IMG/VR virus record: IMGVR_UViG_2671180456_000007
Span: 1 to 33,775 of that record
Strand: one strand, 5' to 3'
DNA from: a virus
Taxonomy: Duplodnaviria; Heunggongvirae; Uroviricota; Caudoviricetes
DNA length: 33,775 nt
The notes under the pieces: generated by a model
What the model saw: only the letters and a program-made list of their open reading frames with translations
Database searches by the model: none
Told to the model about the DNA's origin: nothing
Shown here: positions 2,750 through 33,775 of the stretch, one piece after another
Position numbering within the stretch: the first letter of the stretch is position 1
Layout: each line of letters opens with the position of its first letter
Translations under genes and position numbers: made by a program

Positions 2750-5303
2750 TCTTGTTATTGACCTGAGTCTGGATGCTGTCCGTTTCGATGAGCAGATGAG
2801 CCGGGTAAGGCGTCATTTTTCAGGTCTGGATACCGACGCCAGAAAAACCGCCAGTGCTGTTGAACAGGGCCTGAGCCGCCAGGCGCTGGCTGCACAAAAA
2901 GCCGGGATTTCCGTCGGGCAGTATAAAGCGGCCATGCGAACCCTGCCCGCACAGTTTACGGATATCGCCACGCAGCTTGCCGGTGGTCAGAATCCCTGGC
3001 TGATCCTGCTGCAACAGGGCGGTCAGGTGAAGGACTCCTTCGGCGGGATGATCCCCATGTTCAGGGGGCTTGCCGATGCGATCACCCTGCCGATGGTCGG
3101 GGTCACCTCGCTGGCGGTGGCGACAGGTGCACTGGTGTACGCCTGGTACCAGGGAGATTCCACGCTTTCAGCGTTTAATAAAACCCTGGTTCTTTCCGGT
3201 AATCAGTCCGGACTGACTGCCGATCGTATGCTGACTCTCTCAAGAGCCGGGCAGGCAGCAGGGCTGACGTTTAACCAGGCGAGAGAGTCACTGGCAGCCC
3301 TGGTGAATGCCGGTGTGCGTGGTGGTGAACAGTTTGATGCCATCAACCAGAGTGTCGCGCGTTTTGCGTCTGCATCCGGTGTGGAGGTGGATAAAGTCGC
3401 TGAAGCCTTCGGGAAGCTGACCACTGACCCGACGTCGGGACTGATGGCGATGGCGCGCCAGTTCCGTAACGTGACGGCAGAGCAGATTGCGTATGTTGCA
3501 CAGCTGCAGCGTTCCGGAGACGAGGCCGGGGCATTGCAGGCGGCGAACGATATCGCCACGAAAGGCTTTGATGAGCAGACCCGTCGCCTGAAAGAAAACA
3601 TGGGAACACTGGAGACCTGGGCGGATAAAACAGGGAAGGCATTCAAATCGATGTGGGATGCCATTCTGGATATCGGTCGTCCGGAATCCTCAGCGGATAT
3701 GCTCGCCAGTGCGCAGAAGGCATTTGATGAGGCGGATAAAAAATGGCAGTGGTACCAGAGTCGGAGCCAGCGCCGCGGTAAAACCTCCTCTTTCCGGGCC
3801 AACCTTCAGGGCGCATGGGATGACCGGGAAAATGCCCGTCTGGGTCTGGCAGCGGCAACGCTGCAGTCGGATATGGAAAAAGCCGGTGAACTGGCGGCAA
3901 GGGACAGGGCTGAGCGTGAGTCGTCACAGCTGAAGTATACCGGAGAGGCGCAGAAGGCGTATGAGCGCCTGCTGACGCCACTGGAGAAATATACCGCCCG
4001 GCAGGAAGAGCTGAATAAGGCCCTGAAAGACGGGAAAATCCTGCAGGCGGATTACAACACGCTGATGGCGTCGGCAAAAAAGGATTATGAGTCGACGCAG
4101 AAAAAGCCGTCCGGTGTGAAGGTGTCTGCCGGTGAGCGCCAGGAAGACCAGGCGCATGCAGCCCTGCTGGCGCTTGAAACTGAGCTCAGGACGCTGGAGA
4201 AGCACAGCGGTGCGAATGAAAAAATCAGCCAGCAGCGCCGTGATTTATGGAAAGCGGAAAATCAGTATGTGGTCCTGAAAGAGGCCGCCACGAAACGGCA
4301 GTTATCTGAGCAGGAAAAATCCCTGCTGGCCCATGAGAAAGAAACGCTGGAGTACAAACGCCAGCTGGCTGAGCTGGGCGACAAGATTGAACACCAGAAA
4401 CGGCTGAATGAGCTGGCACAGCAGGCGGCGCGGTTTGAACAGCAGCAGAGCGCGAAGCAGGCGGCAATCAGCGCAAAAGCCCGCGGACTCACCGACCGTC
4501 AGGCGCAGCGGGAGTCGGAAGAGCAGCGCCTTCGTGAGGTGTACGGTGATAATCCGGCTGCGCTGGCGAAGGCCACATCTGCACTGAAGAACACCTGGTC
4601 TGCGGAGGAGCAGCTTCGTGGAAGCTGGATGGCCGGGATGAAGTCCGGCTGGGGCGAGTGGGCGGAAAGTGCGACGGACAGTTTTTCGCAGGTTAAAAAC
4701 GCGGCCACGCAGACCTTTGACGGTATTGCACAGAATATGGCAGCGATGCTGATCGGCAGCGAACAGAACTGGCGTGGTTTCACCCGTTCTGTGCTGTCCA
4801 TGCTGACAGAGATTTTTCTGAAGCAGGCGATGGTGGGGATAGTCGGGAGTATCGGCAGCGCCATTGGCGGTGCTTTCGGTGGTGGTGCGTCTGCCTCCAC
4901 GGGGACGGCCATTCAGGCTGCGGCGGCGAACTTCCATTTCGCGACCGGGGGATTTACGGGGACGGGGGGTAAATATGAACCTGCGGGGATTGTTCATCGC
5001 GGGGAGTTTGTCTTCACGAAGGAGGCGACCAGCCGGATTGGTGTCGGCAATCTGTACCGCCTGATGCGGGGCTATGCGGAAGGTGGTTATGTCGGCGGTG
5101 CCGGAAGTCCGGCGCAGATGCGGCGGGCGGAAGGCATTAATTTTAATCAGAACAATCACGTGGTGATTCAGAACGACGGCCCCAACGGGCGGGCAGGGCC
5201 GCAGCTGATGAAAGCGGTGTATGAGATGGCCCGCAAGGGGGCACAGGATGAACTCCGGCTGCAGTTGCGTGATGGCGGTATGTTATCAGGGAGCGGTGGA
5301 TGA
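2730..5303 (+). CDS. H: Tail tape measure protein H
   Basis: 857-aa ORF (lambda gpH is about 853 aa); lambda-like N-terminus MSQPVGDLVIDLSLDAVRFDEQMSRVRRHF and C-terminus; coiled-coil-rich middle. Confidence 0.9.
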   Translation: MSQPVGDLVIDLSLDAVRFDEQMSRVRRHFSGLDTDARKTASAVEQGLSRQALAAQKAGISVGQYKAAMRTLPAQFTDIATQLAGGQNPWLILLQQGGQVKDSFGGMIPMFRGLADAITLPMVGVTSLAVATGALVYAWYQGDSTLSAFNKTLVLSGNQSGLTADRMLTLSRAGQAAGLTFNQARESLAALVNAGVRGGEQFDAINQSVARFASASGVEVDKVAEAFGKLTTDPTSGLMAMARQFRNVTAEQIAYVAQLQRSGDEAGALQAANDIATKGFDEQTRRLKENMGTLETWADKTGKAFKSMWDAILDIGRPESSADMLASAQKAFDEADKKWQWYQSRSQRRGKTSSFRANLQGAWDDRENARLGLAAATLQSDMEKAGELAARDRAERESSQLKYTGEAQKAYERLLTPLEKYTARQEELNKALKDGKILQADYNTLMASAKKDYESTQKKPSGVKVSAGERQEDQAHAALLALETELRTLEKHSGANEKISQQRRDLWKAENQYVVLKEAATKRQLSEQEKSLLAHEKETLEYKRQLAELGDKIEHQKRLNELAQQAARFEQQQSAKQAAISAKARGLTDRQAQRESEEQRLREVYGDNPAALAKATSALKNTWSAEEQLRGSWMAGMKSGWGEWAESATDSFSQVKNAATQTFDGIAQNMAAMLIGSEQNWRGFTRSVLSMLTEIFLKQAMVGIVGSIGSAIGGAFGGGASASTGTAIQAAAANFHFATGGFTGTGGKYEPAGIVHRGEFVFTKEATSRIGVGNLYRLMRGYAEGGYVGGAGSPAQMRRAEGINFNQNNHVVIQNDGPNGRAGPQLMKAVYEMARKGAQDELRLQLRDGGMLSGSGG

Positions 5304-5629
5304 AAACCTTTCGCTGGAAAGTGAAGCCGGATATGGAGGTGAACTCGCAGCCATCGGTGCGTGAAGTGCGTTTTGGTGACGGGTACTCACAGCGTATGGC
5401 GGCAGGGCTGAATGCTGACCTGAAAACATACAGGGTGACGCTTTCCGTGACCCGGGAGGAGGCCCAGCATCTGGAAGCGTTCCTGGCAGAGCACGGTGGC
5501 TGGAAGGCATTTTTGTGGAAGCCACCCTATGCATACCGGCAGATAAAGGTGACCTGTGCCGGGTGGTCTGCGCGGGTCGGGATGTTGCGCGTTGAGTTCA
5601 GCGCGGAGTTTAAGCAGGTGGTGAACTGA
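5300..5629 (+). CDS. M: Minor tail protein M
   Basis: 109-aa ORF (lambda gpM is 109 aa), ATGA overlap with H; lambda-like sequence. Confidence 0.85.
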   Translation: MKTFRWKVKPDMEVNSQPSVREVRFGDGYSQRMAAGLNADLKTYRVTLSVTREEAQHLEAFLAEHGGWKAFLWKPPYAYRQIKVTCAGWSARVGMLRVEFSAEFKQVVN

Positions 5630-6327
5630 TGCAGGATATTCGCGAAGAAAGTCTGAACGAGTCGGTTAAGTCAGAGCAGTCACCGCGGGTGGTACTCTGG
5701 GAAATCGACCTGACGGTACAGGGTGGTGAGCGGTATTTTTTCTGTAATGAGCTGAATGAAAAAGGGGAGCCGGTCACCTGGCAGGGGCGTAAGTATGAGG
5801 CATACCCGATTGACGGCAGCGGCTTTGAGATGAACGGCCGGGGCAGCAGTGCCAGACCGTCGCTGACGGTGTCCAATCTGTTCGGTCTGGTCACCGGGAT
5901 GGCGGAAGACCTGCAGAGTCTGGTGGGGGCCACGGTGGTCCGCCGCCGGGTGTATGCCCGTTTTCTGGATGCGGTGAATTTCGTTGCGGGCAATCCGGAG
6001 GCGGACCCGGAGCAGGAGCTGAGTGACCGCTGGGTGGTGGAGCAGATGTCGCAGCTGACAGCCATGACGGCCTCGTTTGTGCTGGCTACACCGACCGAGA
6101 CGGACGGGGCGCTGTTTCCCGGTCGCATCATGCTGGCGAACACCTGTATGTGGGATTACCGGGGAGATGAATGCGGGTATAACGGTCCTGCGGTGGCGGA
6201 TGAGTTCGACAACCCCACCACGGATATCCGTAAGGACAGATGCAGCAAGTGCATGCGCGGGTGTGAACTGCGCAGGAATGTCGGCAATTTTGGCGGTTTC
6301 CTTTCCATTAATAAACTTTCGCAGTAA
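5629..6327 (+). CDS. L: Minor tail protein L (C-terminal cysteine cluster)
   Basis: 232-aa ORF (lambda gpL is 232 aa); C-terminal motif CMWDYRGDECGY...CSKCMRGC consistent with the Fe-S-binding cysteines of gpL. Confidence 0.85.
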   Translation: MQDIREESLNESVKSEQSPRVVLWEIDLTVQGGERYFFCNELNEKGEPVTWQGRKYEAYPIDGSGFEMNGRGSSARPSLTVSNLFGLVTGMAEDLQSLVGATVVRRRVYARFLDAVNFVAGNPEADPEQELSDRWVVEQMSQLTAMTASFVLATPTETDGALFPGRIMLANTCMWDYRGDECGYNGPAVADEFDNPTTDIRKDRCSKCMRGCELRRNVGNFGGFLSINKLSQ

Positions 6328-29034: not shown

Positions 29035-29210
29035 TGATCGGCTGGATGATTGCATTTTTAGCAGTTGGTTTTTTCATCGGTATTGTGGTGATGTCCAGTT
29101 GCATTAATGACTACATTAAAAACGGTGTTATAGAAAGACGAGGTCGCATTTATCGCATTGTAGAAATAACCAACACCGTGAAGGAGATTAAGGATGATCG
29201 TATTAAGTAA
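29031..29210 (+). CDS. Small single-pass membrane protein (59 aa; below the ORF-track size cutoff), paralogue 1
   Basis: ATG overlaps the ligase stop (ATGA); MMIGWMIAFLAVGFFIGIVVMSS... has a TM helix then the basic tail RRGRIYRIVEITNTVKE. Confidence 0.4.
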   Translation: MMIGWMIAFLAVGFFIGIVVMSSCINDYIKNGVIERRGRIYRIVEITNTVKEIKDDRIK

Positions 29211-29409
29211 AAGGGAGAAAGAAACGCTTCATGAAATCAGTAAGTGGCCGGAGTTCCCTGAGTACTGGAAGCCTAAAACGCGAGCTAAGTTAGAGCGTTT
29301 AGGGTTGGTTGCAAACGTTTCTGAAACGTGGTGCTCGGCCAACTACCAGTTAACTGATAAAGGGAAAGTATTGCTACAGCAATTAGTAGAATCAGGAGTG
29401 TTAAAATGA
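29194..29409 (+). CDS. Hypothetical small protein (71 aa)
   Basis: RBS AAGGAG 9 nt upstream; overlaps both neighbouring small genes. Confidence 0.5.
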   Translation: MIVLSKREKETLHEISKWPEFPEYWKPKTRAKLERLGLVANVSETWCSANYQLTDKGKVLLQQLVESGVLK

Positions 29410-29558
29410 TTCCATACATCTCGTTAGCTTTTATGGGTGGCTTCCTTATCGGCTTCGGCATCTGTCGTGATTTAATTAAGCAGGAACTTAAAACCAAAAC
29501 ACTGTGCATCGGAAAGCGTGTGTATCGGGTAGTTCATGAAACAAAGGTGAAAAAATGA
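29406..29558 (+). CDS. Small single-pass membrane protein (50 aa), paralogue 2
   Basis: MIPYISLAFMGGFLIGFGICRD... TM helix then GKRVYRVVHETKVKK, similar in layout and C-terminal motif to the 29031 gene; ATGA-coupled to the next gene. Confidence 0.4.
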   Translation: MIPYISLAFMGGFLIGFGICRDLIKQELKTKTLCIGKRVYRVVHETKVKK

Positions 29559-29845
29559 GCAATTTAACTTCTTGGGAATGGTGGTTGGCCACCTATTTCT
29601 TAGCGGCCGGAGTAGCATTCGCCTTTTACGTAGGTCAGTTAGTCGTAAAACTGTTGCTGATTAAATTTGCTAGTCATAAACGTATCGATGATGGTCTGTG
29701 GCGTCTTGGCACCCTGGTGGAAACTCGCTACGGGCAACTTAAGGAGAACGAAACCATTACTATCCAAGCGAAACGATTCACTGCCACCATTACAAGAACA
29801 CCTAGTCGTAGAGTGGCCTTGATCAAAAAAGTCACAACCGAATAA
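29555..29845 (+). CDS. Small membrane protein (96 aa) with N-terminal TM helix
   Basis: MSNLTSWEWWLATYFLAAGVAFAFYVGQLVV... hydrophobic helix; last gene of the translationally coupled run. Confidence 0.55.
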   Translation: MSNLTSWEWWLATYFLAAGVAFAFYVGQLVVKLLLIKFASHKRIDDGLWRLGTLVETRYGQLKENETITIQAKRFTATITRTPSRRVALIKKVTTE

Positions 29846-29862
29846 AAACATATCGATAAGTA

Positions 29863-29884
29863 TTTACTTACTTATCTTTTGTGT
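29863..29884 (+). other. AT-rich hairpin GATAAGTA-N6-TACTTATC followed by TTTTG; possible terminator or regulatory palindrome of the TAAGTA family
   Basis: 8-bp inverted repeat 18 nt after the stop of the 29555 gene. Confidence 0.35.
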
Positions 29885-30236
29885 ATAAGATGACTTTGTT
29901 TTCGTTGAGACGCGACTGTTTGAACTTAAATACAAGTGCAAACGAAGAAGTCTATCTGGCAGTAGCCTAATAAGCCAAACACCAGCGAGGTCAGTTTCCA
30001 GCCTCGTTACCGAAATGGGACACACTGAGCGAGTGTGATTGCAGAACGCAGGAGGGAACATGAATGTTCCCTCCGATGAAGTAACAGAATGGGCCGGTTG
30101 GTATATTTTCAACTCCATATGACTCCCGGATTCTTAGCCACTGACCGCCCATCCTGTTACGTCATTTTGTTCAATTATGTCGTTTATACTGGGTTAAAAA
30201 GCGGCGACGTAGCCCGGCTGGTATGGTTAGCCAGTA

Positions 30237-30358
30237 CACAACGTTGAGGCCATTACATTTTTATCAATTCTAAGGTTCTATTCACAGAGATACCGGCGAG
30301 CGTTGATATGTAACATGTTGGGCAAACATTCAATCGGAGTAGTGGCCTCAACGTTGTG
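30237..30358 (+). repeat. Long hairpin element A (about 20-bp terminal stem CACAACGTTGAGGCCATTAC / GTAGTGGCCTCAACGTTGTG, about 80-nt interior)
   Basis: The two arms are exact reverse complements apart from one position; termini match those of elements B, C and D. Confidence 0.5.
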
Positions 30359-30624
30359 AAGACAGGATTGTTGTGTAGGTTTAACCACTGTTGCCATTGG
30401 TGCCTGTTTTCACAACAAATGATTCCATACATCACATTGTATAAATTACAAAGTAGGTGCTGTCCTCAGAAACATCATCTACTTAAAGATTTTGCCTTCT
30501 ACTATTGAGCGAAGTCGAAAGCGTCTGGCACTAACGAAAAGTGCAAGTAGCGGTGCGTTTCCTGGCAGAAACTAAACCGTCGCGATTGGCACTGTTGAGT
30601 AATAAATACTGGCAGTGCTGAATT

Positions 30625-30699
30625 GATGGTGTAGCTCAGCGGTAGAGCAGTTGGCTGTTAACCAACTGGTCGGTGGTTCGAATCCACCCACCATCGCCA
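30625..30699 (+). tRNA. tRNA-Asn (anticodon GTT)
   Basis: Manual fold: acceptor GATGGTG/CACCATC, D-stem GCTC/GAGC, anticodon stem GTTGG/CCAAC with loop CTGTTAA, T-arm GGTGG-TTCGAAT-CCACC, discriminator G plus encoded CCA. Confidence 0.8.
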
Positions 30700-30704
30700 A
30701 TTTA

Positions 30705-30791
30705 GGGGAGTTAGTCCGTAGGGGCAGCGGGGTAGACTGTAAATCTACTGTCATTGCGACTCGGGTGGTTCGACTCCATCACTCCCCACCA
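30705..30791 (+). tRNA. tRNA-Tyr (anticodon GTA), class II with long variable arm
   Basis: Acceptor GGGGAGT/ACTCCCC, anticodon stem GTAGA/TCTAC with loop CTGTAAA, variable stem-loop, T-arm GGTGG-TTCGACT-CCATC, encoded CCA; the D-arm region is non-canonical (4-nt linker). Confidence 0.7.
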
Positions 30792-30795
30792 AATT

Positions 30796-30871
30796 GCCGG
30801 TTTAGCTCAGTTGGTAGAGCGTCTGCCTTGTAAGCAGGATGTCAGCGGTTCGATCCCGTTAACCGGCACCA
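30796..30871 (+). tRNA. tRNA-Thr (anticodon TGT)
   Basis: Acceptor GCCGGTT/AACCGGC, D-arm GCTC-AGTTGGTA-GAGC, anticodon stem TCTGC/GCAGG with loop CTTGTAA, T-arm AGCGG-TTCGATC-CCGTT, encoded CCA. Confidence 0.8.
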
Positions 30872-30872
30872 A

Positions 30873-30962
30873 CACAACAGGTAAGAGCATTGGGCGAATC
30901 GGCGATACTGACCCACAAGCCCGTAAATCGATAGAGTCAGACCAGTGCTCTTACCGTTGTGA
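30873..30962 (+). repeat. Long hairpin element B (terminal stem CACAACAGGTAAGAGCATTGG / CCAGTGCTCTTACCGTTGTG), directly abutting the tRNA-Thr 3' end
   Basis: About 20-bp inverted repeat with compensatory changes relative to elements A, C and D; begins 2 nt after the tRNA-Thr CCA. Confidence 0.5.
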
Positions 30963-31013
30963 GGAAGTGCAGCTCTTTGAAGCAACCAGAAGATAAGCAT
31001 CTGGCTTCACAAC

Positions 31014-31092
31014 ACAACGATAAGATCATTACGGTTAATCGTCGTTCATGTGCACAATGACTGGTCGAAAGGTAGTGATCTTACCGTTGTGA
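31014..31092 (+). repeat. Long hairpin element C (terminal stem CACAACGATAAGATCATTAC / GTAGTGATCTTACCGTTGTG)
   Basis: Inverted repeat with the same CACAACG ... CGTTGTG termini as elements A and B. Confidence 0.5.
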
Positions 31093-31191
31093 TGAATGCA
31101 CAGGCTGATGTGCCGCAACTACAGTAGTGCGCGCTTTGCGGGGGTTGCTACAACCCTGTGTCGGAGTTCAGCACCGACCATCACAATAGCT

Positions 31192-31278
31192 GGAGAGTAG
31201 GGAGCATGGTGCTCAAGCGGTCTTGAAAACCGTCCCATTGCGCAAGCGATGATGGTTCGATTCCATTACTCTCCGCCA
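31192..31278 (+). tRNA. tRNA-Ser (anticodon TGA), class II with long variable arm
   Basis: Acceptor GGAGAGT/ACTCTCC, D-stem GAGC/GCTC, anticodon stem GCGGT/ACCGT with loop CTTGAAA, variable arm ATTGC-GCAA-GCGAT, T-arm GATGG-TTCGATT-CCATT, discriminator G plus CCA. Confidence 0.8.
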
Positions 31279-31280
31279 GA

Positions 31281-31358
31281 CACAGCGTTGAGCGGTTTGG
31301 CCTTTTAATCACCCAGATTAAGACTCCGCTAACATAAACCAGACCGCTCAACGCTGTG
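31281..31358 (+). repeat. Long hairpin element D (terminal stem CACAGCGTTGAGCGGTTTGG / CCAGACCGCTCAACGCTGTG), directly abutting the tRNA-Ser 3' end
   Basis: 20-bp inverted repeat with one mismatch; termini CACAGCG ... CGCTGTG are a covarying variant of the A-C termini. Confidence 0.5.
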
Positions 31359-31432
31359 ATAGACAATTACGGCAGACGTTCTTAACCATAGCTTGCTAAC
31401 ATCCTAGCAACACTTTTTTCAGCGCAAAATTC

Positions 31433-31456
31433 AAAGGGGCTTCGGCCCCTTTTTTG
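31433..31456 (+). terminator. Rho-independent terminator closing the tRNA cluster (stem AAAGGGGC/GCCCCTTT, loop TTCG, T6 tract)
   Basis: AAAGGGGCTTCGGCCCCTTTTTTG; a second weaker hairpin with a T tract lies at 31393-31419 (TTGCTA-ACATCC-TAGCAA-CAC-TTTTTT). Confidence 0.75.
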
Positions 31457-31498
31457 CAACTGAAAGAGTCAAGTCTACGAACTTTGTAGGAAGAAATA

Positions 31499-31849
31499 AT
31501 GACCAGCAAAGATAACACACCACTAAAAGTCACCCCTGAACACATTGAACAACTCATTCAAAGTGAACATTATTTCACTGCATATGATGCCAGCCACGGG
31601 GATAACTTCATCTCTGTTTACAATTCAAAAACAGATATCGACAAAGGTCATGAGTCGTTAAAACTCTTAACGTTCTGCGTTATGGTTCTCAAAAATGGAT
31701 ATACCGTAACGGGAAAATCTGCGTGCGTAAGACCAGAAATCTTCAACTTTGATGTTGGTCGCGAGTACGCTCGAAAAGATGCTATCGATCAAATCTGGCC
31801 CCTGGAAGGCTATCTCCTGAAGCAAAAGTGGCATGAGGCAAAGCAATGA
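31499..31849 (+). CDS. Gp49-like conserved phage protein (function unknown)
   Basis: 116 aa; the motif ...GYTVTGKSACVRPEIFNFDVGREYARKDAIDQIWPLEGYLLKQK matches, from memory, a widespread family of small phage proteins (GxSACVxPxNFDxxxGRxxA...LEGYLL); RBS AGGAAG. Confidence 0.6.
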   Translation: MTSKDNTPLKVTPEHIEQLIQSEHYFTAYDASHGDNFISVYNSKTDIDKGHESLKLLTFCVMVLKNGYTVTGKSACVRPEIFNFDVGREYARKDAIDQIWPLEGYLLKQKWHEAKQ

Positions 31850-32091
31850 CGATCACTATCTACGGACGAGATAACTGCTCATACTGCAAACGTGCAGTCG
31901 AGCTGGCGAAGCAACTAAAGGGACATGGCTACGGTGATTATGAGTACATCGACATCACCACTGCCGGTATCGACAAGGAAAAACTAAGTGAAATTGTTGG
32001 TAAACCGGTAGAGACTATCCCCCAGGTGCTGATCGATGGCCAGCCGATTGGCGGATACACAGAACTGGCTGCATACGTCAGCACCCTCTGA
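31846..32091 (+). CDS. Glutaredoxin (NrdC/NrdH-like thiol-disulfide oxidoreductase)
   Basis: 81 aa; CxxC active site CSYC near the N-terminus and a glutaredoxin-like C-terminus ...IPQVLIDGQPIGGYTEL; ATGA-coupled to the upstream gene. Confidence 0.75.
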   Translation: MTITIYGRDNCSYCKRAVELAKQLKGHGYGDYEYIDITTAGIDKEKLSEIVGKPVETIPQVLIDGQPIGGYTELAAYVSTL

Positions 32092-32096
32092 TTTTA

Positions 32097-32121
32097 ACGG
32101 CTCACAGGAGCCGTTTTTATT
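32097..32121 (+). terminator. Rho-independent terminator after the glutaredoxin gene (stem ACGGCTC/GAGCCGT, loop ACAG, T tract)
   Basis: ACGGCTCACAGGAGCCGTTTTTATT, 6 nt after the stop codon. Confidence 0.75.
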
Positions 32122-32170
32122 CCCACCAAACTCACTCCCATTTCCCTTAAAATTCAAAAAACAACGTCAA

Positions 32171-32203
32171 AATGATTCCATACCTACTATGTATGGAATC
32201 ATT
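32171..32203. promoter_or_regulatory. Inverted repeat AATGATTCCATAC-N7-GTATGGAATCATT about 100 bp upstream of the integrase gene; candidate operator or recombination site
   Basis: 13-bp arms are exact reverse complements; the same sequence occurs as single copies at 29404-29420 and 30418-30434. Confidence 0.45.
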
Positions 32204-32301
32204 AGTAAAAATGAGTTACTTTTACTCTTGATCCTATAAGAATCTATGCCTAATATACTGTTTACTTATACAGTACATCGGCGTAACTCGGTGATTGTCA
32301 T

Positions 32302-33405
32302 ATGAAAAATAGCTTTGACAGAGCACGCGCTGCGGAGAACACCTCAAAAGAGGCGATAGAGTATCTCGAAAGAGCATCTCAAATGCAGGCCGTTATGATC
32401 TCCCAGGTCAGCAATGACATGAGATTCTCGGACGCATTCATGTTATTCACTCGCTTATCTCTGCTCATAACCAGACGTCGGCCAGAGATCGCTGTTCATT
32501 GTATTTTGATACATGTTTTTCCGCACATTGCCGATGTAAAAGTAAGTGATATTAATAGGTTCATGGTGAACCAACTGGTCAACCCACTAATACTGGATGG
32601 CAAAATTGTTATGGGCCGCCGCGTTTTCTCTCTGATGAAGCAGTTCCTTAGCTGGTGCGCCTTCCAGGGGATGATAGACGTGTCACCGTTAAACGATATG
32701 TCACTTAACAAAGTTGCCGGTGGCGCAAAGCCCACGCCCCGCGAGCGGAAGCTGACTGACGCAGAGGTATGGGTGTTCTGGAATATATGGGACTACTTCA
32801 ATGTGTGTGCTGGTACAAAATGGGCGGCCAGGCTATGTCTTGTATCCGCAAGACGACCTGACGAAGTACTGCGGGCTAAAAAAAGTGAGTTCAATCTTAA
32901 GCGTGGGGTTTGGAATCAAGGCAAGAGGAACAAATCTGCCCGTGAGCATTCTCTGCCTTTAAGCTCATTAATGCGCACTTGTATTGAAGAGTTGTTCGAA
33001 TATGGTAAAGACAGCCAGTGGCTCGTGCCTTCGAATAAAAAAATCGGGAAAGACCTTCCTATGTCTAAAGTGGCAATAGCCCAGGCATTACGTCGTATTC
33101 TGGAACGACCAGAACTGATGGAGCTTGAGCCATTTACACCCCGAGATTTGCGCCGTACTGCGCGTAGTTACTTCCCAGCATTAGGCATAAGCCAGGAGGT
33201 ATCACGTAAAATCATGAACCACAGTCTTGAGGGGATAGATCGGGTCTACGACCGGCACGATTATATGGACGAGATGCGAGACGCCTTAGAAAGTTTCTCG
33301 ACGTACATCGCATCAATCGTAGAGCAACCGGATTTAGACGAAATTGACCACAAATTTAAGGGAGATCGTCTATCAACAGAGCTTATTCGTGTAAATTTTT
33401 CATAG
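32302..33405 (+). CDS. int: Tyrosine recombinase / phage integrase (P4-like family)
   Basis: 367 aa; conserved catalytic regions ...LVSARRPDEVL... (box I Arg), ...FTPRDLRRTARSYF... (box II) and ...MNHSLEGIDRVYDRHDY (His ... Tyr nucleophile region). Arg replaces the usual box II His; the N-terminal arm-binding domain is atypical. Confidence 0.75.
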   Translation: MKNSFDRARAAENTSKEAIEYLERASQMQAVMISQVSNDMRFSDAFMLFTRLSLLITRRRPEIAVHCILIHVFPHIADVKVSDINRFMVNQLVNPLILDGKIVMGRRVFSLMKQFLSWCAFQGMIDVSPLNDMSLNKVAGGAKPTPRERKLTDAEVWVFWNIWDYFNVCAGTKWAARLCLVSARRPDEVLRAKKSEFNLKRGVWNQGKRNKSAREHSLPLSSLMRTCIEELFEYGKDSQWLVPSNKKIGKDLPMSKVAIAQALRRILERPELMELEPFTPRDLRRTARSYFPALGISQEVSRKIMNHSLEGIDRVYDRHDYMDEMRDALESFSTYIASIVEQPDLDEIDHKFKGDRLSTELIRVNFS

Positions 33406-33729
33406 AGACTTTATGGCCTCAACAACCTTTTGTGATGCGCCTTTCTCTTTACCGAATCGCTCGTTATATGCAGCAAGAACCTGTTTTTCGTCCTCGTTAA
33501 GAGGAGCAGTGCCTTCTTTGTATAAAAATGCTGCGAGTTCGGGTTGGCGTTCTTCCAGCACCATCATCATAAGACGACTTGGCTCAATACCCAGTGCCAG
33601 CGCCAGCGGACGAACCTTATCGATAGGCAAAGGAATTTTGCCGCTTTTAATTAAAGAAAGGTTGTTGGCGTTTTTATACCCAATTGTTTTGGCTATCTGG
33701 GCCTGGCTCATAGGTGAGGATTCAATCAA
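33400..33729 (-). CDS. XRE-family helix-turn-helix transcriptional regulator (Cro/CI-like DNA-binding domain only)
   Basis: 109 aa; HTH segment SQAQIAKTIGYKNANNLSLIKSGK; convergent with the integrase gene and overlapping it by 6 nt. Confidence 0.7.
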   Translation of the reverse strand: MIESSPMSQAQIAKTIGYKNANNLSLIKSGKIPLPIDKVRPLALALGIEPSRLMMMVLEERQPELAAFLYKEGTAPLNEDEKQVLAAYNERFGKEKGASQKVVEAIKSL

Positions 33730-33775
33730 CCCTGCGATAAAAGCAGCGTAGCGACTTTCTATAAATTCAATCTTG

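What the first reader, a model, noticed from the sequence alone, without database searches (positions are those of the whole stretch)
29404..32203. Dispersed 13-17-nt motif AAATGATTCCATACATC, including an inverted pair upstream of the integrase gene
The 17-mer AAATGATTCCATACATC occurs exactly at 29404-29420 (overlapping the start codon of a small membrane-protein gene) and at 30418-30434 (between hairpin element A and the tRNA cluster). Its first 13 nt occur as a perfect inverted repeat with a 7-nt spacer at 32171-32203, about 100 bp upstream of int. An exact 17-mer repeat is unlikely by chance in 34 kb. The inverted copy looks like a dimeric protein-binding site, possibly an operator for the HTH regulator or an integrase or excisionase site.
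Basis: seen in the sequence. Interest (0 to 1): 0.48.

Follow-up and report, generated by a model that had tools for sequence, protein, structure and literature searches.

The report
Recombinase target site plus scattered half-sites
The inverted repeat upstream of the integrase gene of this SSU5/pHCM2/pMT1-type phage-plasmid is most likely that recombinase's own lox-like target site, and single copies of one arm are kept unchanged several kilobases away, some inside genes, for a purpose not yet known.

Summary
The window is an SSU5-like phage-plasmid (closest: Cyrano/pLF82).

At 32171-32203, two perfect 13-nt arms (AATGATTCCATAC) flank a 7-nt spacer, 98 nt upstream of a tyrosine recombinase gene.
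- About 85 relatives, including Y. pestis pMT1 and S. Typhi pHCM2, keep the core arm sequence TGATTCCATAC unchanged; a few lineages vary the one or two outermost bases.
- The spacer varies and is found in both orientations in three lineages.
- Int homologues of 43-50% identity carry the same 12/13-7-12/13 structure with arms (A/G)TGACTCCAGAC, imperfect in Photorhabdus. This includes Erwinia, Pantoea and Rahnella plasmids with no phage genes and no neighbouring HTH gene.

So the repeat belongs to the integrase, not to the HTH regulator. It is most likely a loxP-like crossover site for the plasmid state: all 255 E. coli copies are on plasmids. A conserved LexA box overlaps the int promoter.

The single copies (ATGATTCCATACATC) are not chance. 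They hold position and orientation across lineages and are 99-100% conserved against 67-79% flanks. A further copy outside the window dictates codons in a variable loop of DnaE. Their function is unresolved; extra integrase-binding half-sites is my best guess.

The parts
32171..32183 (+). Left arm of the inverted repeat, AATGATTCCATAC: proposed binding site for one integrase monomer.
   Evidence: Exact in the window. The 11-nt core TGATTCCATAC is present in every SSU5-like relative examined; the full 13-mer is identical in nearly all, with the outer one or two bases differing in a few lineages. It is replaced by (A/G)TGACTCCAGAC, symmetrically in both arms, in the clade whose Int is 43-50% identical.
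32184..32190 (+). 7-nt asymmetric spacer CTACTAT: proposed strand-exchange (overlap) region.
   Evidence: Fifteen different spacers were seen among relatives while the core of the arms stays fixed. Exact reverse-complement pairs occur in three lineages: CTACTAT/ATAGTAG, CTATTAA/TTAATAG and TCTATAG/CTATAGA.
32191..32203 (-). Right arm of the inverted repeat, GTATGGAATCATT on the + strand.
   Evidence: Perfect complement of the left arm.
32147..32162 (+). A-rich block TTAAAATTCAAAAAAC, 8 nt left of the repeat. It is semi-conserved, (C)AGAATTYAAAAAA-like, even where all DNA further left differs. It could be an accessory or bending element.
   Evidence: Comparison of 41 distinct left flanks. No function was tested.
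32302..33405 (+). int: a 367-aa tyrosine recombinase, the proposed partner of the repeat.
   Evidence: Pfam Phage_integrase E = 2.9e-10, 40.6 bits against a cut-off of 27.1. The AlphaFold2 model has pLDDT 85. Its best fold matches are lambda Int(75-356), Tn1549 Int and Xer recombinases. Candidate active-site residues R185, K211, R284/R285 and Y316/Y321 are invariant, and H307 nearly so, in 28 homologues.
32228..32275 (+). int promoter read by eye (TTGATC, 17 nt, TAATAT; 32228-32256), overlapped by a LexA box TACTGTTTACTTATACAGTA (32256-32275).
   Evidence: CTGT-N8-ACAG lies at 32258-32273. A CTG-N10-CAG box sits 52-55 nt (64 nt in one) after the repeat in 80 of 82 relatives. The promoter falls below the scan tool's threshold, so it is my own reading.
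29404..29420 (+). Single copy 'class 1' (conserved core ATGATTCCATACATC, 29406-29420). It spans the stop codon of the 71-aa ORF (29194-29409) and the start codon plus codons 2-5 (MIPYI) of the 50-aa membrane ORF (29406-29558).
   Evidence: Exact. It sits at the same gene junction in E. coli, Salmonella, Klebsiella, Enterobacter, Kluyvera and Nissabacter relatives. Identity of the 15-mer is 1.00 in 27 distinct contexts, against 0.72 and 0.76 for the flanks.
30417..30433 (+). Single copy 'class 2' (core 30419-30433). It is intergenic, directly after a CACAAC stem and about 190 nt before tRNA-Asn.
   Evidence: Exact. It forms the only run of 15 invariant columns in a 9-lineage alignment of this non-coding region. 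Identity is 0.99 against 0.67 and 0.74 for the flanks. The only core mutation seen (CCGTAC) is in phage SSU5, which has lost int and the repeat.
32908..32920 (-). Degenerate remnant of a fourth copy ('class 4') inside int: CTTGATTCCAAAC on the minus strand, which encodes VWNQ.
   Evidence: Three mismatches in the window. At the same int position in pHCM2, pMT1, Klebsiella and Enterobacter relatives the sequence is TTGATTCCATACATC. It varies and may be held mainly by the protein sequence.
33400..33775 (-). HTH gene convergent with int, cut by the window end ('putative repressor' CYRAN_45 in Cyrano). It was considered as the binding protein and is not supported.
   Evidence: Weak Pfam HTH_19 match. 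The gene is absent next to int plus repeat in Erwinia, Pantoea and Rahnella plasmids.

Best explanation
The 33-bp inverted repeat is the core recombination site of the adjacent tyrosine recombinase.

Proposed mechanism, inferred from how Cre/loxP, Flp/FRT and Xer/dif work:
- One Int monomer clamps each 13-bp arm.
- Two sites synapse as a tetramer.
- Strands are exchanged across the 7-bp asymmetric spacer.

The element lives only as a plasmid and carries a single site. The reaction is therefore most likely the resolution of plasmid multimers, and possibly the circularisation of terminally redundant phage DNA after infection. It is unlikely to be chromosomal integration. A LexA box over the int promoter places the recombinase under SOS control.

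The single copies consist of the same arm extended to ATGATTCCATACATC. I read them as extra binding sites for Int monomers that selection maintains. There are two on the + strand to the left of the site. There are one or two on the - strand to the right: inside int in most lineages, and inside dnaE. Their effect is not established; a regulatory or architectural role is a guess.

My separate estimates:
- The repeat is the Int-binding site: about 0.85.
- It is a true crossover site used in the plasmid state: about 0.65.
- The single copies are bound by Int: about 0.5.
For: SHOWN

Architecture: 13-7-13, so arm centres are 20 bp apart, as in loxP and FRT (21 bp).

Association with int:
- The repeat lies 50-138 nt upstream of int in every homologue context examined.
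- The core TGATTCCATAC is unchanged although int DNA identity falls to 63-78%.
- Arms switch to (A/G)TGACTCCAGAC in Int homologues of 43-50% identity. They are perfect or nearly so in Xenorhabdus, Providencia, Erwinia, Pantoea and Rahnella. In Photorhabdus they are imperfect and intermediate between the two types.
- Erwinia, Pantoea and Rahnella plasmids of 106-723 kb have int plus the repeat with no phage genes and no HTH neighbour.

Replicon state:
- One site per replicon in two complete genomes.
- 255 of 255 places in 5,426 complete E. coli genomes are on plasmids and none on chromosomes.

The protein: Int is a two-domain tyrosine recombinase with a helical N-terminus and no lambda-type arm-binding domain.

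The spacer is highly variable and is flipped in three lineages.

The single copies:
- They are conserved in position and orientation.
- The 15-mer is 0.99-1.00 identical against 0.67-0.79 for its flanks.
- In DnaE the motif sits in a loop that varies at the protein level. Codons xGA TGT ATG GAA TCA TTR show no synonymous change except in the last. The preceding residue alternates between G and R (GGA/AGA), which keeps the 'GA'.

INFERRED: the strand-exchange mechanism, the multimer-resolution role, and Int binding to the single copies.
Against: - No recombination product was seen.
- Large co-integrate plasmids do not join at the repeat.
- One clear chimera crossed over in the grx region, not in the repeat.
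- The repeat could be only an Int autoregulatory site close to its promoter.
- Spacer flips can arise at any hairpin-forming repeat without a recombinase.
- Single copies are absent from the Xenorhabdus, Providencia, Erwinia, Pantoea and Rahnella loci, so they are not needed for the Int/site pair.
- The single copies carry a conserved ATC that the arms of the repeat lack.
- An isolated half-site has no known role in simple tyrosine-recombinase systems.
Confidence: 0.6

Rival explanations
1. The repeat and the single copies act as RNA. Copies on the + strand (the start of the small-protein mRNA, and the leader before the tRNAs) are perfectly complementary over 15-16 nt to the copies read from int and dnaE mRNA. 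A leader or small RNA carrying AAUGAUUCCAUACAUC could then pair with dnaE or int mRNA and silence phage replication functions in the lysogen.
For: - The left copies are sense and the right copies antisense, so transcripts of the + strand carry complementary 15-16-mers.
- The intergenic copy lies between stem-forming segments in a conserved non-coding region next to tRNA genes.
- That tRNA region is expressed in Cyrano lysogens (PMC9928086).
- Every lineage with a + copy also keeps at least one - copy.
Against: - The motif equals the arm of a DNA site that travels and co-varies with the recombinase, which an RNA seed has no reason to do.
- The repeat lies after the grx terminator and before the int promoter, so it is probably little transcribed.
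- No G-U-type or compensatory variation was seen; the motif simply does not vary.
- RNAalifold gave a weak consensus with one covarying pair, and there is no Rfam match.
Confidence: 0.12
2. The repeat is the operator of the neighbouring HTH 'repressor', and the single copies are auxiliary operators, as with the dispersed asymmetric C1 operators of phage P1.
For: - The HTH gene lies next to int in all SSU5-like relatives.
- P1 C1 is a precedent for single and paired asymmetric operators (my own knowledge).
Against: - The repeat with int occurs without this gene in Erwinia, Pantoea and Rahnella plasmids.
- Arm centres 20 bp apart and a 13-15-bp non-palindromic half-site are unusual for a small XRE-type dimer.
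- None of the single copies overlaps a recognisable promoter, and two lie inside coding sequence.
- Copies occur only within about 7 kb of int, not across the genome.
Confidence: 0.07
3. The repeat binds Int only to autoregulate int transcription. No strand exchange happens there, and the true crossover site, if any, is elsewhere.
For: - The repeat ends 24 nt before the -35 element read by eye.
- In Pantoea it lies only 18-50 nt before the start codon.
- No recombination products were found.
Against: - The 13-7-13 geometry with an asymmetric, freely varying spacer is the hallmark of a crossover site.
- The distance to int varies from 50 to 138 nt across clades, which fits a fixed promoter-operator relation poorly.
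- No other repeat of this kind lies near int.
Confidence: 0.1
4. The single copies are functionless remnants of past recombination, or chance matches.
For: - They are absent from several clades.
- pMT1 lacks the two left copies.
Against: - The 15-mer is 0.99-1.00 conserved in 22-27 distinct contexts per class, against 0.67-0.79 for the flanks.
- It is maintained at synonymous sites in dnaE across genera.
- The expected number of chance 17-mer matches is 0.05.
- PhiR41_1 lost both left copies in a replacement, yet the replacing DNA carries a new + copy.
Confidence: 0.05

Closest known systems
Cre/loxP of phage-plasmid P1, and the Cre-type pairs Dre/rox and Vika/vox
   Same: - A single tyrosine recombinase gene sits next to a single site made of two 13-bp inverted arms around a short asymmetric spacer.
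- It is carried by a phage that lives as a plasmid.
- The presumed roles are multimer resolution and circularisation.
- No accessory arm-type sites lie at the core.
   Different: - There is no detectable sequence similarity to Cre: the best fold matches are lambda Int, Tn1549 Int and Xer, and Cre ranks lower.
- The spacer is 7 bp, not 8.
- The int promoter carries a LexA box.
- Conserved isolated half-sites lie kilobases away, which Cre/loxP does not have (my own knowledge).
ResD/rfsF of F, Rsd/crs of Salmonella virulence plasmids, and XerH/difH or XerS/difSL single-recombinase systems
   Same: A tyrosine recombinase is encoded beside its own site on a low-copy replicon and keeps the replicon monomeric.
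   Different: Activity was not tested here. The site sequence and the protein are unrelated at sequence level. FtsK or accessory-protein dependence is unknown.
TnpI/IRS of Tn4430 and Tn5401
   Same: One recombinase-binding motif is used both as an inverted pair at the crossover core and as additional single copies elsewhere. In Tn5401 these lie in the transposon ends, kilobases away and in mirror orientation.
   Different: This is my own recollection, not tested here. The extra TnpI motifs have defined roles (directionality, control of transposase binding), and there is no transposon here.
Rci/sfx shufflon of IncI plasmids
   Same: These are sites in which only one arm is conserved, with a 7-bp spacer.
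   Different: - sfx sites share the spacer and recombine with each other.
- Here the sequences after the single copies differ within each genome.
- No inversion was seen in about 80 relatives.
LexA-controlled integron integrases (IntI)
   Same: A tyrosine recombinase is under a LexA box, with its site just upstream and variable cargo genes directly beyond the site.
   Different: - There are no attC-like elements.
- Cargo boundaries carry no hybrid sites.
- The recombinase is not an IntI relative: IntI ranks only 25th and below among the fold matches.

Membership tests
Tyrosine recombinase (Phage_integrase, PF00589) - for the int product | Significant match to the catalytic-domain profile | tested here: met
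   PF00589 E = 2.9e-10, 40.6 bits against a cut-off of 27.1.
Tyrosine recombinase (Phage_integrase, PF00589) - for the int product | Two-domain C-clamp fold (core-binding plus catalytic domain) | tested here: met
   AlphaFold2 model with pLDDT 85.4. Foldseek best matches are lambda Int 1z1b, Tn1549 Int 6en0, XerA and XerH, with probability 1.00.
Tyrosine recombinase (Phage_integrase, PF00589) - for the int product | Catalytic residues R-K-H-R-H/W-Y | tested here: inconclusive
   R185, K211, R284/R285 and Y316/Y321 are invariant, and H307 nearly so, in 28 homologues. The first His of the usual HxxR box appears replaced (…PRDLRR…). Assignment of residues to roles is by eye.
Simple lox/FRT/dif-type core recombination site | Two inverted recombinase-binding arms of 11-14 bp around a 6-8-bp spacer | tested here: met
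   13-7-13 at 32171-32203. The same layout is found in all relatives.
Simple lox/FRT/dif-type core recombination site | Arm sequence specific to, and co-varying with, its recombinase | tested here: met
   ATGATTCCATAC goes with Int of at least 56% identity to the query. (A/G)TGACTCCAGAC goes with Int of 43-50% identity, changed symmetrically in both arms. There is an intermediate, imperfect form in Photorhabdus.
Simple lox/FRT/dif-type core recombination site | Spacer not constrained in sequence and asymmetric | tested here: met
   Fifteen spacer variants; one end is usually CTA; both orientations occur relative to int.
Simple lox/FRT/dif-type core recombination site | Int-dependent strand exchange within the spacer | not testable with these tools
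   Needs an in vivo or in vitro recombination assay. No natural product with a junction in the spacer was found.
Plasmid multimer-resolution system | One site per replicon, replicon maintained extrachromosomally | tested here: met
   One repeat in NZ_CP117972.1 and one in PhiR41_1. In E. coli, 255 of 255 places are on plasmids.
Plasmid multimer-resolution system | Loss of the system raises multimers and lowers stability | not testable with these tools
   Needs genetics.
Lambda-type complex att site with arm-type sites | N-terminal arm-binding domain in the integrase | tested here: not met
   No DUF4102/PF13356 hit, whereas homologues below 35% identity have it. The N-terminus of the model is helical.
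Lambda-type complex att site with arm-type sites | Arm-type repeats, different from the core, within about 150 bp of the core | tested here: not met
   The extra copies have the same sequence as the core arms and lie 0.6-6.9 kb away.
Operator of the adjacent HTH repressor | Site co-occurs with the repressor gene | tested here: not met
   The repeat with int is found without that gene in Erwinia, Pantoea and Rahnella.
Rci/sfx-type shufflon | Shared spacer among the one-armed sites, and inversions among natural variants | tested here: not met
   The sequences after the arm differ between copies of one genome, and no inverted arrangement was seen in about 80 loci.
Tus/Ter-like replication fork trap around a resolution site | Sites flank the replication terminus | tested here: not met
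   Cumulative GC skew of PhiR41_1 rises steadily to repA and does not switch at the repeat. This is a weak test, because gene orientation dominates skew.
LexA (SOS) box at the int promoter | CTGT-N8-ACAG overlapping the promoter, conserved in relatives | tested here: met
   32258-32273. Present at a nearly fixed distance in 80 of 82 relatives. LexA binding itself was not tested.

The most novel reading that the evidence does not exclude
In SSU5-like phage-plasmids the recombinase's half-site has been recruited as a dispersed cis-element. SOS-induced Int would then act both as a resolvase at its lox-like site and as a sequence-specific DNA-binding factor at isolated 15-bp sites. These sites flank the core site in mirror orientation and are written into coding sequence: the MIPYI start of a small membrane protein and the CMESL loop of the phage DnaE. 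This would couple the recombinase to control of phage replication or neighbouring genes. An RNA-pairing version of the same network is the alternative form of this reading.
Probability: 0.3. Interest if true: 0.72.

Novelty: new variant of a known kind. Interest (0 to 1): 0.55.

Why it matters
- The SSU5/pHCM2/pMT1 group is the largest phage-plasmid supergroup. It includes plasmids of the plague and typhoid bacilli, and carriers of resistance genes. I found no description of its persistent 'integrase' or of a target site in the searchable literature.
- Assigning a lox-like site to the integrase gives a testable function: plasmid maintenance, not integration.
- It offers two new, naturally orthogonal recombinase/target pairs (ATGATTCCATAC type and TGACTCCAGAC type) of possible use in genome engineering.
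- It shows an SOS-controlled recombinase outside integrons.
- The isolated half-sites are the unusual part. A 15-nt DNA word is held unchanged across genera, to the point of fixing five codons in a variable loop of a DNA polymerase. Explaining that could reveal a second job for a site-specific recombinase.

Tried and rejected
- Homology break at the repeat as a sign of crossover. BLAST alignments of many relatives start at 32170-32172. Closer reading shows a semi-conserved A-rich block about 8-25 nt further left, and a cargo hotspot between the grx terminator and that block. The break therefore does not prove crossover in the repeat.
- Recombinant junctions. Chimera L044 switches parent in the grx region, not in the repeat. 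The 231-kb and 240-kb co-integrate plasmids do not join at the repeat.
- Fork-trap idea, prompted by the mirror orientation of the copies. There is no skew switch at the site.
- Shufflon-like inversion or deletion between copies. No shared spacer and no rearranged relatives.
- Promoter at the single copies. Nothing in the consensus scan, and reading by eye was inconclusive.
- Known RNA family. Only tRNAs were found. RNAalifold around the intergenic copy gave a weak structure.
- Small ORFs starting at each ATGATTCC. Only the 29406 copy has a ribosome-binding site. The others end after 6-29 codons and are not conserved (sequence reading).
- Covariation of the base before TGATTCC between repeat and single copy. 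It holds in one Klebsiella lineage but not in L091, so I do not rely on it.
- Literature. No paper in the library contains either arm sequence in a relevant context.

Full report
1. THE OBSERVATION

The 17-mer AAATGATTCCATACATC is exact at 29404-29420 and at 30417-30433. With up to three mismatches the only other matches are the two arms at 32170-32204. That is four matches against 0.05 expected, and no shuffle out of 100 reaches four.

The inverted repeat is AATGATTCCATAC (32171-32183), CTACTAT (32184-32190), GTATGGAATCATT (32191-32203). The arms are perfect and the spacer is 7 nt. It ends 98 nt before the int start codon at 32302.

2. WHAT THE WINDOW IS

The region is 96-98% identical to Escherichia phage Cyrano (pLF82), phage CMS-2020a and PhiR41_1, and more distantly related to Salmonella phage SSU5. 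These are SSU5-like phage-plasmids.

The int region alone matches 840 plasmid records. They include S. Typhi pHCM2 and Y. pestis pMT1, at 73-78% DNA identity.

The local gene order is: ligase, a 71-aa ORF, a 50-aa membrane ORF, a 96-aa ORF, a non-coding stretch with hairpins, four tRNAs, gp49-like, glutaredoxin, the repeat, int, a convergent HTH gene, then cobT, cobS and dnaE.

3. THE REPEAT BELONGS TO THE INTEGRASE

In seven first comparisons the 12-nt arm core ATGATTCCATAC was identical. This held although int is only 73-78% identical at DNA level in the Salmonella, Yersinia, Enterobacter and Klebsiella plasmids. The spacer differed. Seventy-five further loci gave the same picture. The full 13-nt arms were unchanged except in L091, where only the 11-nt core TGATTCCATAC matches.

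Spacers in those loci were CTACTAT (36), CTATTAA (23), TTGTAAG (8), TTAATAG (2), TCCTTAG, TCTTTAG and TTATATA. A more distant Klebsiella lineage has TGTGATTCCATAC arms.

I then looked at Int homologues of 43-60% identity in their own contigs:
- Nissabacter and Serratia keep the TGATTCCATAC arm core.
- Xenorhabdus, Providencia, Erwinia, Pantoea and Rahnella have (A/G)TGACTCCAGAC-7-GTCTGGAGTCA(C/T). The same two positions are changed in both arms.
- Photorhabdus has an imperfect intermediate form.

The Erwinia (106 kb), Pantoea (508 kb) and Rahnella (723 kb) replicons have no phage genes and no HTH gene beside int. The repeat is still there, 50-136 nt upstream.

The site therefore travels with int and co-varies with it.

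4. WHAT KIND OF SITE

The protein:
- Int matches Pfam Phage_integrase and has no sequence relative in the PDB.
- It folds with pLDDT 85 as a two-domain tyrosine recombinase. The closest folds are lambda Int(75-356), Tn1549 Int and Xer proteins.
- Its N-terminus is helical, and there is no arm-binding domain hit. Homologues below 35% identity do carry PF13356.

The site:
- Thirteen-base arms around a 7-bp asymmetric spacer give arm centres 20 bp apart. By my own knowledge of Cre/loxP and Flp/FRT this is the geometry of a simple crossover site, not of a small HTH dimer operator.
- Complete genomes carry one site each.
- In 5,426 complete E. coli genomes the int region occurs in 252. All 255 places are on plasmids and none on a chromosome.
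- Cyrano is kept at about 5.5 copies per cell (PMC9928086).

The simplest function is therefore resolution of plasmid multimers, and perhaps circularisation after infection, as for Cre/loxP in P1. This function is inferred, not shown.

The spacer is found as exact reverse complements in three separate lineages:
- window against PhiR41_1, 34 of 34 bases;
- two Klebsiella plasmids;
- Buttiauxella and L084 against the pHCM2 type.

Read in one orientation most spacers begin with CTA, so the site is asymmetric, but its orientation relative to int is free. Free orientation is what a resolution site allows. However, small inversions can arise at any hairpin-forming repeat, so I do not count the flips as proof of recombinase activity.

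5. SOS CONTROL

By eye, a promoter TTGATC-17-TAATAT (32228-32256) is overlapped by TACTGTTTACTTATACAGTA. The CTGT-N8-ACAG core lies at 32258-32273. A CTG-N10-CAG box lies 52-55 nt after the repeat (64 nt in one relative) in 80 of 82 relatives. Cyrano is induced by ciprofloxacin. LexA binding was not tested.

6. THE SINGLE COPIES

In the closest complete plasmid the exact 13-mer occurs five times, all within 9 kb: two + copies, the repeat, and a - copy inside dnaE. There are no near-matches elsewhere in 121 kb. PhiR41_1 shows the same restriction.

Across roughly 80 loci the copies fall into classes with fixed position and orientation:
- Class 1 lies at the start codon of the small membrane ORF.
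- Class 2 lies after a CACAAC stem in the non-coding region before the tRNAs.
- Class 4 lies inside int at +606 on the minus strand. It varies and is degenerate in the E. coli lineage, including this window at 32908-32920.
- Class 5 lies on the minus strand about 250 nt into dnaE.

The conserved word is ATGATTCCATACATC. In 22-27 distinct sequence contexts per class its identity is 0.99-1.00, against 0.67-0.79 for 18-nt flanks. In a nine-lineage alignment of the non-coding region it forms the only run of 15 invariant columns.

The dnaE case is the clearest:
- The motif lies in a stretch of DnaE that differs completely in the Xenorhabdus, Providencia and distant Klebsiella proteins.
- Where the motif is present, the codons are always xGA TGT ATG GAA TCA TTR.
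- The preceding residue is either G or R (GGA or AGA), which keeps the two bases the motif needs.
- Neighbouring codons vary freely.

That is selection on the DNA or RNA word, not on the protein.

PhiR41_1 has lost classes 1 and 2 in a 6.4-kb replacement, but the replacing DNA brings its own + copy.

Phage SSU5 has lost int, the repeat and the HTH gene. It keeps classes 1 and 5 and carries the only core mutation seen in class 2. This is a single case and only suggestive.

7. WHAT THE SINGLE COPIES DO

They share 12-13 bases with the arms of a site that is specific to Int, and they cluster within 7 kb of it. The economical reading is that Int monomers bind them.

Against this:
- They carry a conserved ATC that the arms of the repeat lack.
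- They are missing from the TGACTCCAGAC clade.
- Simple recombinases have no known use for lone half-sites.

They are not recombination partners. The bases that follow the arm differ between copies of one genome, and no inversion or deletion between copies was seen.

The mirror arrangement (+ copies left, - copies right) suggested a fork trap, but GC skew does not change at the site.

The same arrangement means that + strand transcripts carry complementary 15-16-mers, so an RNA-pairing network remains possible. I rate it lower because an RNA seed has no reason to equal a recombinase arm, and because no wobble or compensatory change is seen.

I put Int binding at about 0.5, RNA pairing at about 0.12, and other readings below that.

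8. COMPARISON WITH KNOWN SYSTEMS AND NOVELTY

The Int/site pair works like Cre/loxP and other single-recombinase plasmid resolution systems. It is unrelated to Cre in sequence, has a 7-bp spacer, and is under a LexA box.

No paper in the searchable library contains either arm sequence in a relevant context. The phage-plasmid surveys only list a persistent tyrosine recombinase (PMC7969092).

The pair is a new member of a known kind. The conserved distant half-sites are a departure with only loose precedents: extra TnpI motifs in Tn4430 and Tn5401, and one-armed sfx sites. Both precedents are recalled from memory and were not tested here.

9. VERDICT

The finding is real and more interesting than a generic 'protein-binding repeat'. 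It points to a previously undescribed lox-like site for the conserved recombinase of a medically relevant plasmid group. It also shows a strictly conserved 15-nt word embedded in genes. The crossover activity and the role of the single copies need experiments.

Noticed in passing
window 32256-32275: A LexA-type box (TACTGTTTACTTATACAGTA) overlaps the -10 element of the int promoter. It is conserved in 80 of 82 relatives, so the 'integrase' of this plasmid prophage looks SOS-inducible.
   Followed up: partly
window 30241-30360, 30873-30962, 31000-31092, 31280-31360: Four long hairpin elements with CACAAC…GTTGTGA ends interleave with the tRNA genes. The stretch 30240-30625 is a conserved, apparently structured non-coding region. 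There is no Rfam match.
   Followed up: partly
window 32092-32170 and the equivalent in relatives (L001 6167-7045, L004, L005, L006, L102, L103): A cargo hotspot lies between the grx terminator and the A-rich block left of the repeat. It holds 0-3 unrelated genes, such as a YafO toxin pair and CYRAN_43. CYRAN_43 is reported as 723-fold above prophage background in lysogens (PMC9928086).
   Followed up: partly
L015 (Klebsiella plasmid NZ_CP056309.1), about 4065-5973: A group II intron (ltrA) is inserted directly after the LexA-box palindrome, between the int promoter and the int start codon.
   Followed up: partly
L104 (phage SSU5, NC_018843.1), 5597-5762: The type phage SSU5 lacks phoH-grx, the repeat, int, the HTH gene and the 70-aa gene; tRNA-Asn is joined almost directly to cobT. 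This may explain why SSU5 was isolated as a free phage.
   Followed up: partly
L052, dnaE copy (about +5929 from the int start): A 9-nt tandem duplication (ACATCTCAT twice, three extra in-frame codons) begins in the last five bases of the motif inside dnaE.
   Followed up: no
L017 30095-36508 (PhiR41_1 80095-86508): The ligase-to-grx segment is replaced by 6.4 kb of other genes (an AraC/GadW-like regulator and an 826-aa protein) with an IS remnant at the left end. The replacement ends at the repeat, whose spacer is inverted there.
   Followed up: partly
L007 1-10700 and L009 10000-20874 (NZ_CP117972.1): The same roughly 10.7 kb (helicase to portal genes, identical protein accessions) appears at both ends of this 'circular' record. 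This is probably an assembly overlap, so the true size is about 110 kb.
   Followed up: no
window 30766-31185: The tRNA-Thr/tRNA-Asn neighbourhood is 84-91% identical to the plp-tRNA-upl region of P1, P7 and D6 phage-plasmids. This suggests exchange of a tRNA module between unrelated phage-plasmid families.
   Followed up: no
L087 9600-10160: In one IMG/VR contig the repeat and the first 53 codons of int are replaced by an unrelated ORF, while the two left single copies remain.
   Followed up: no
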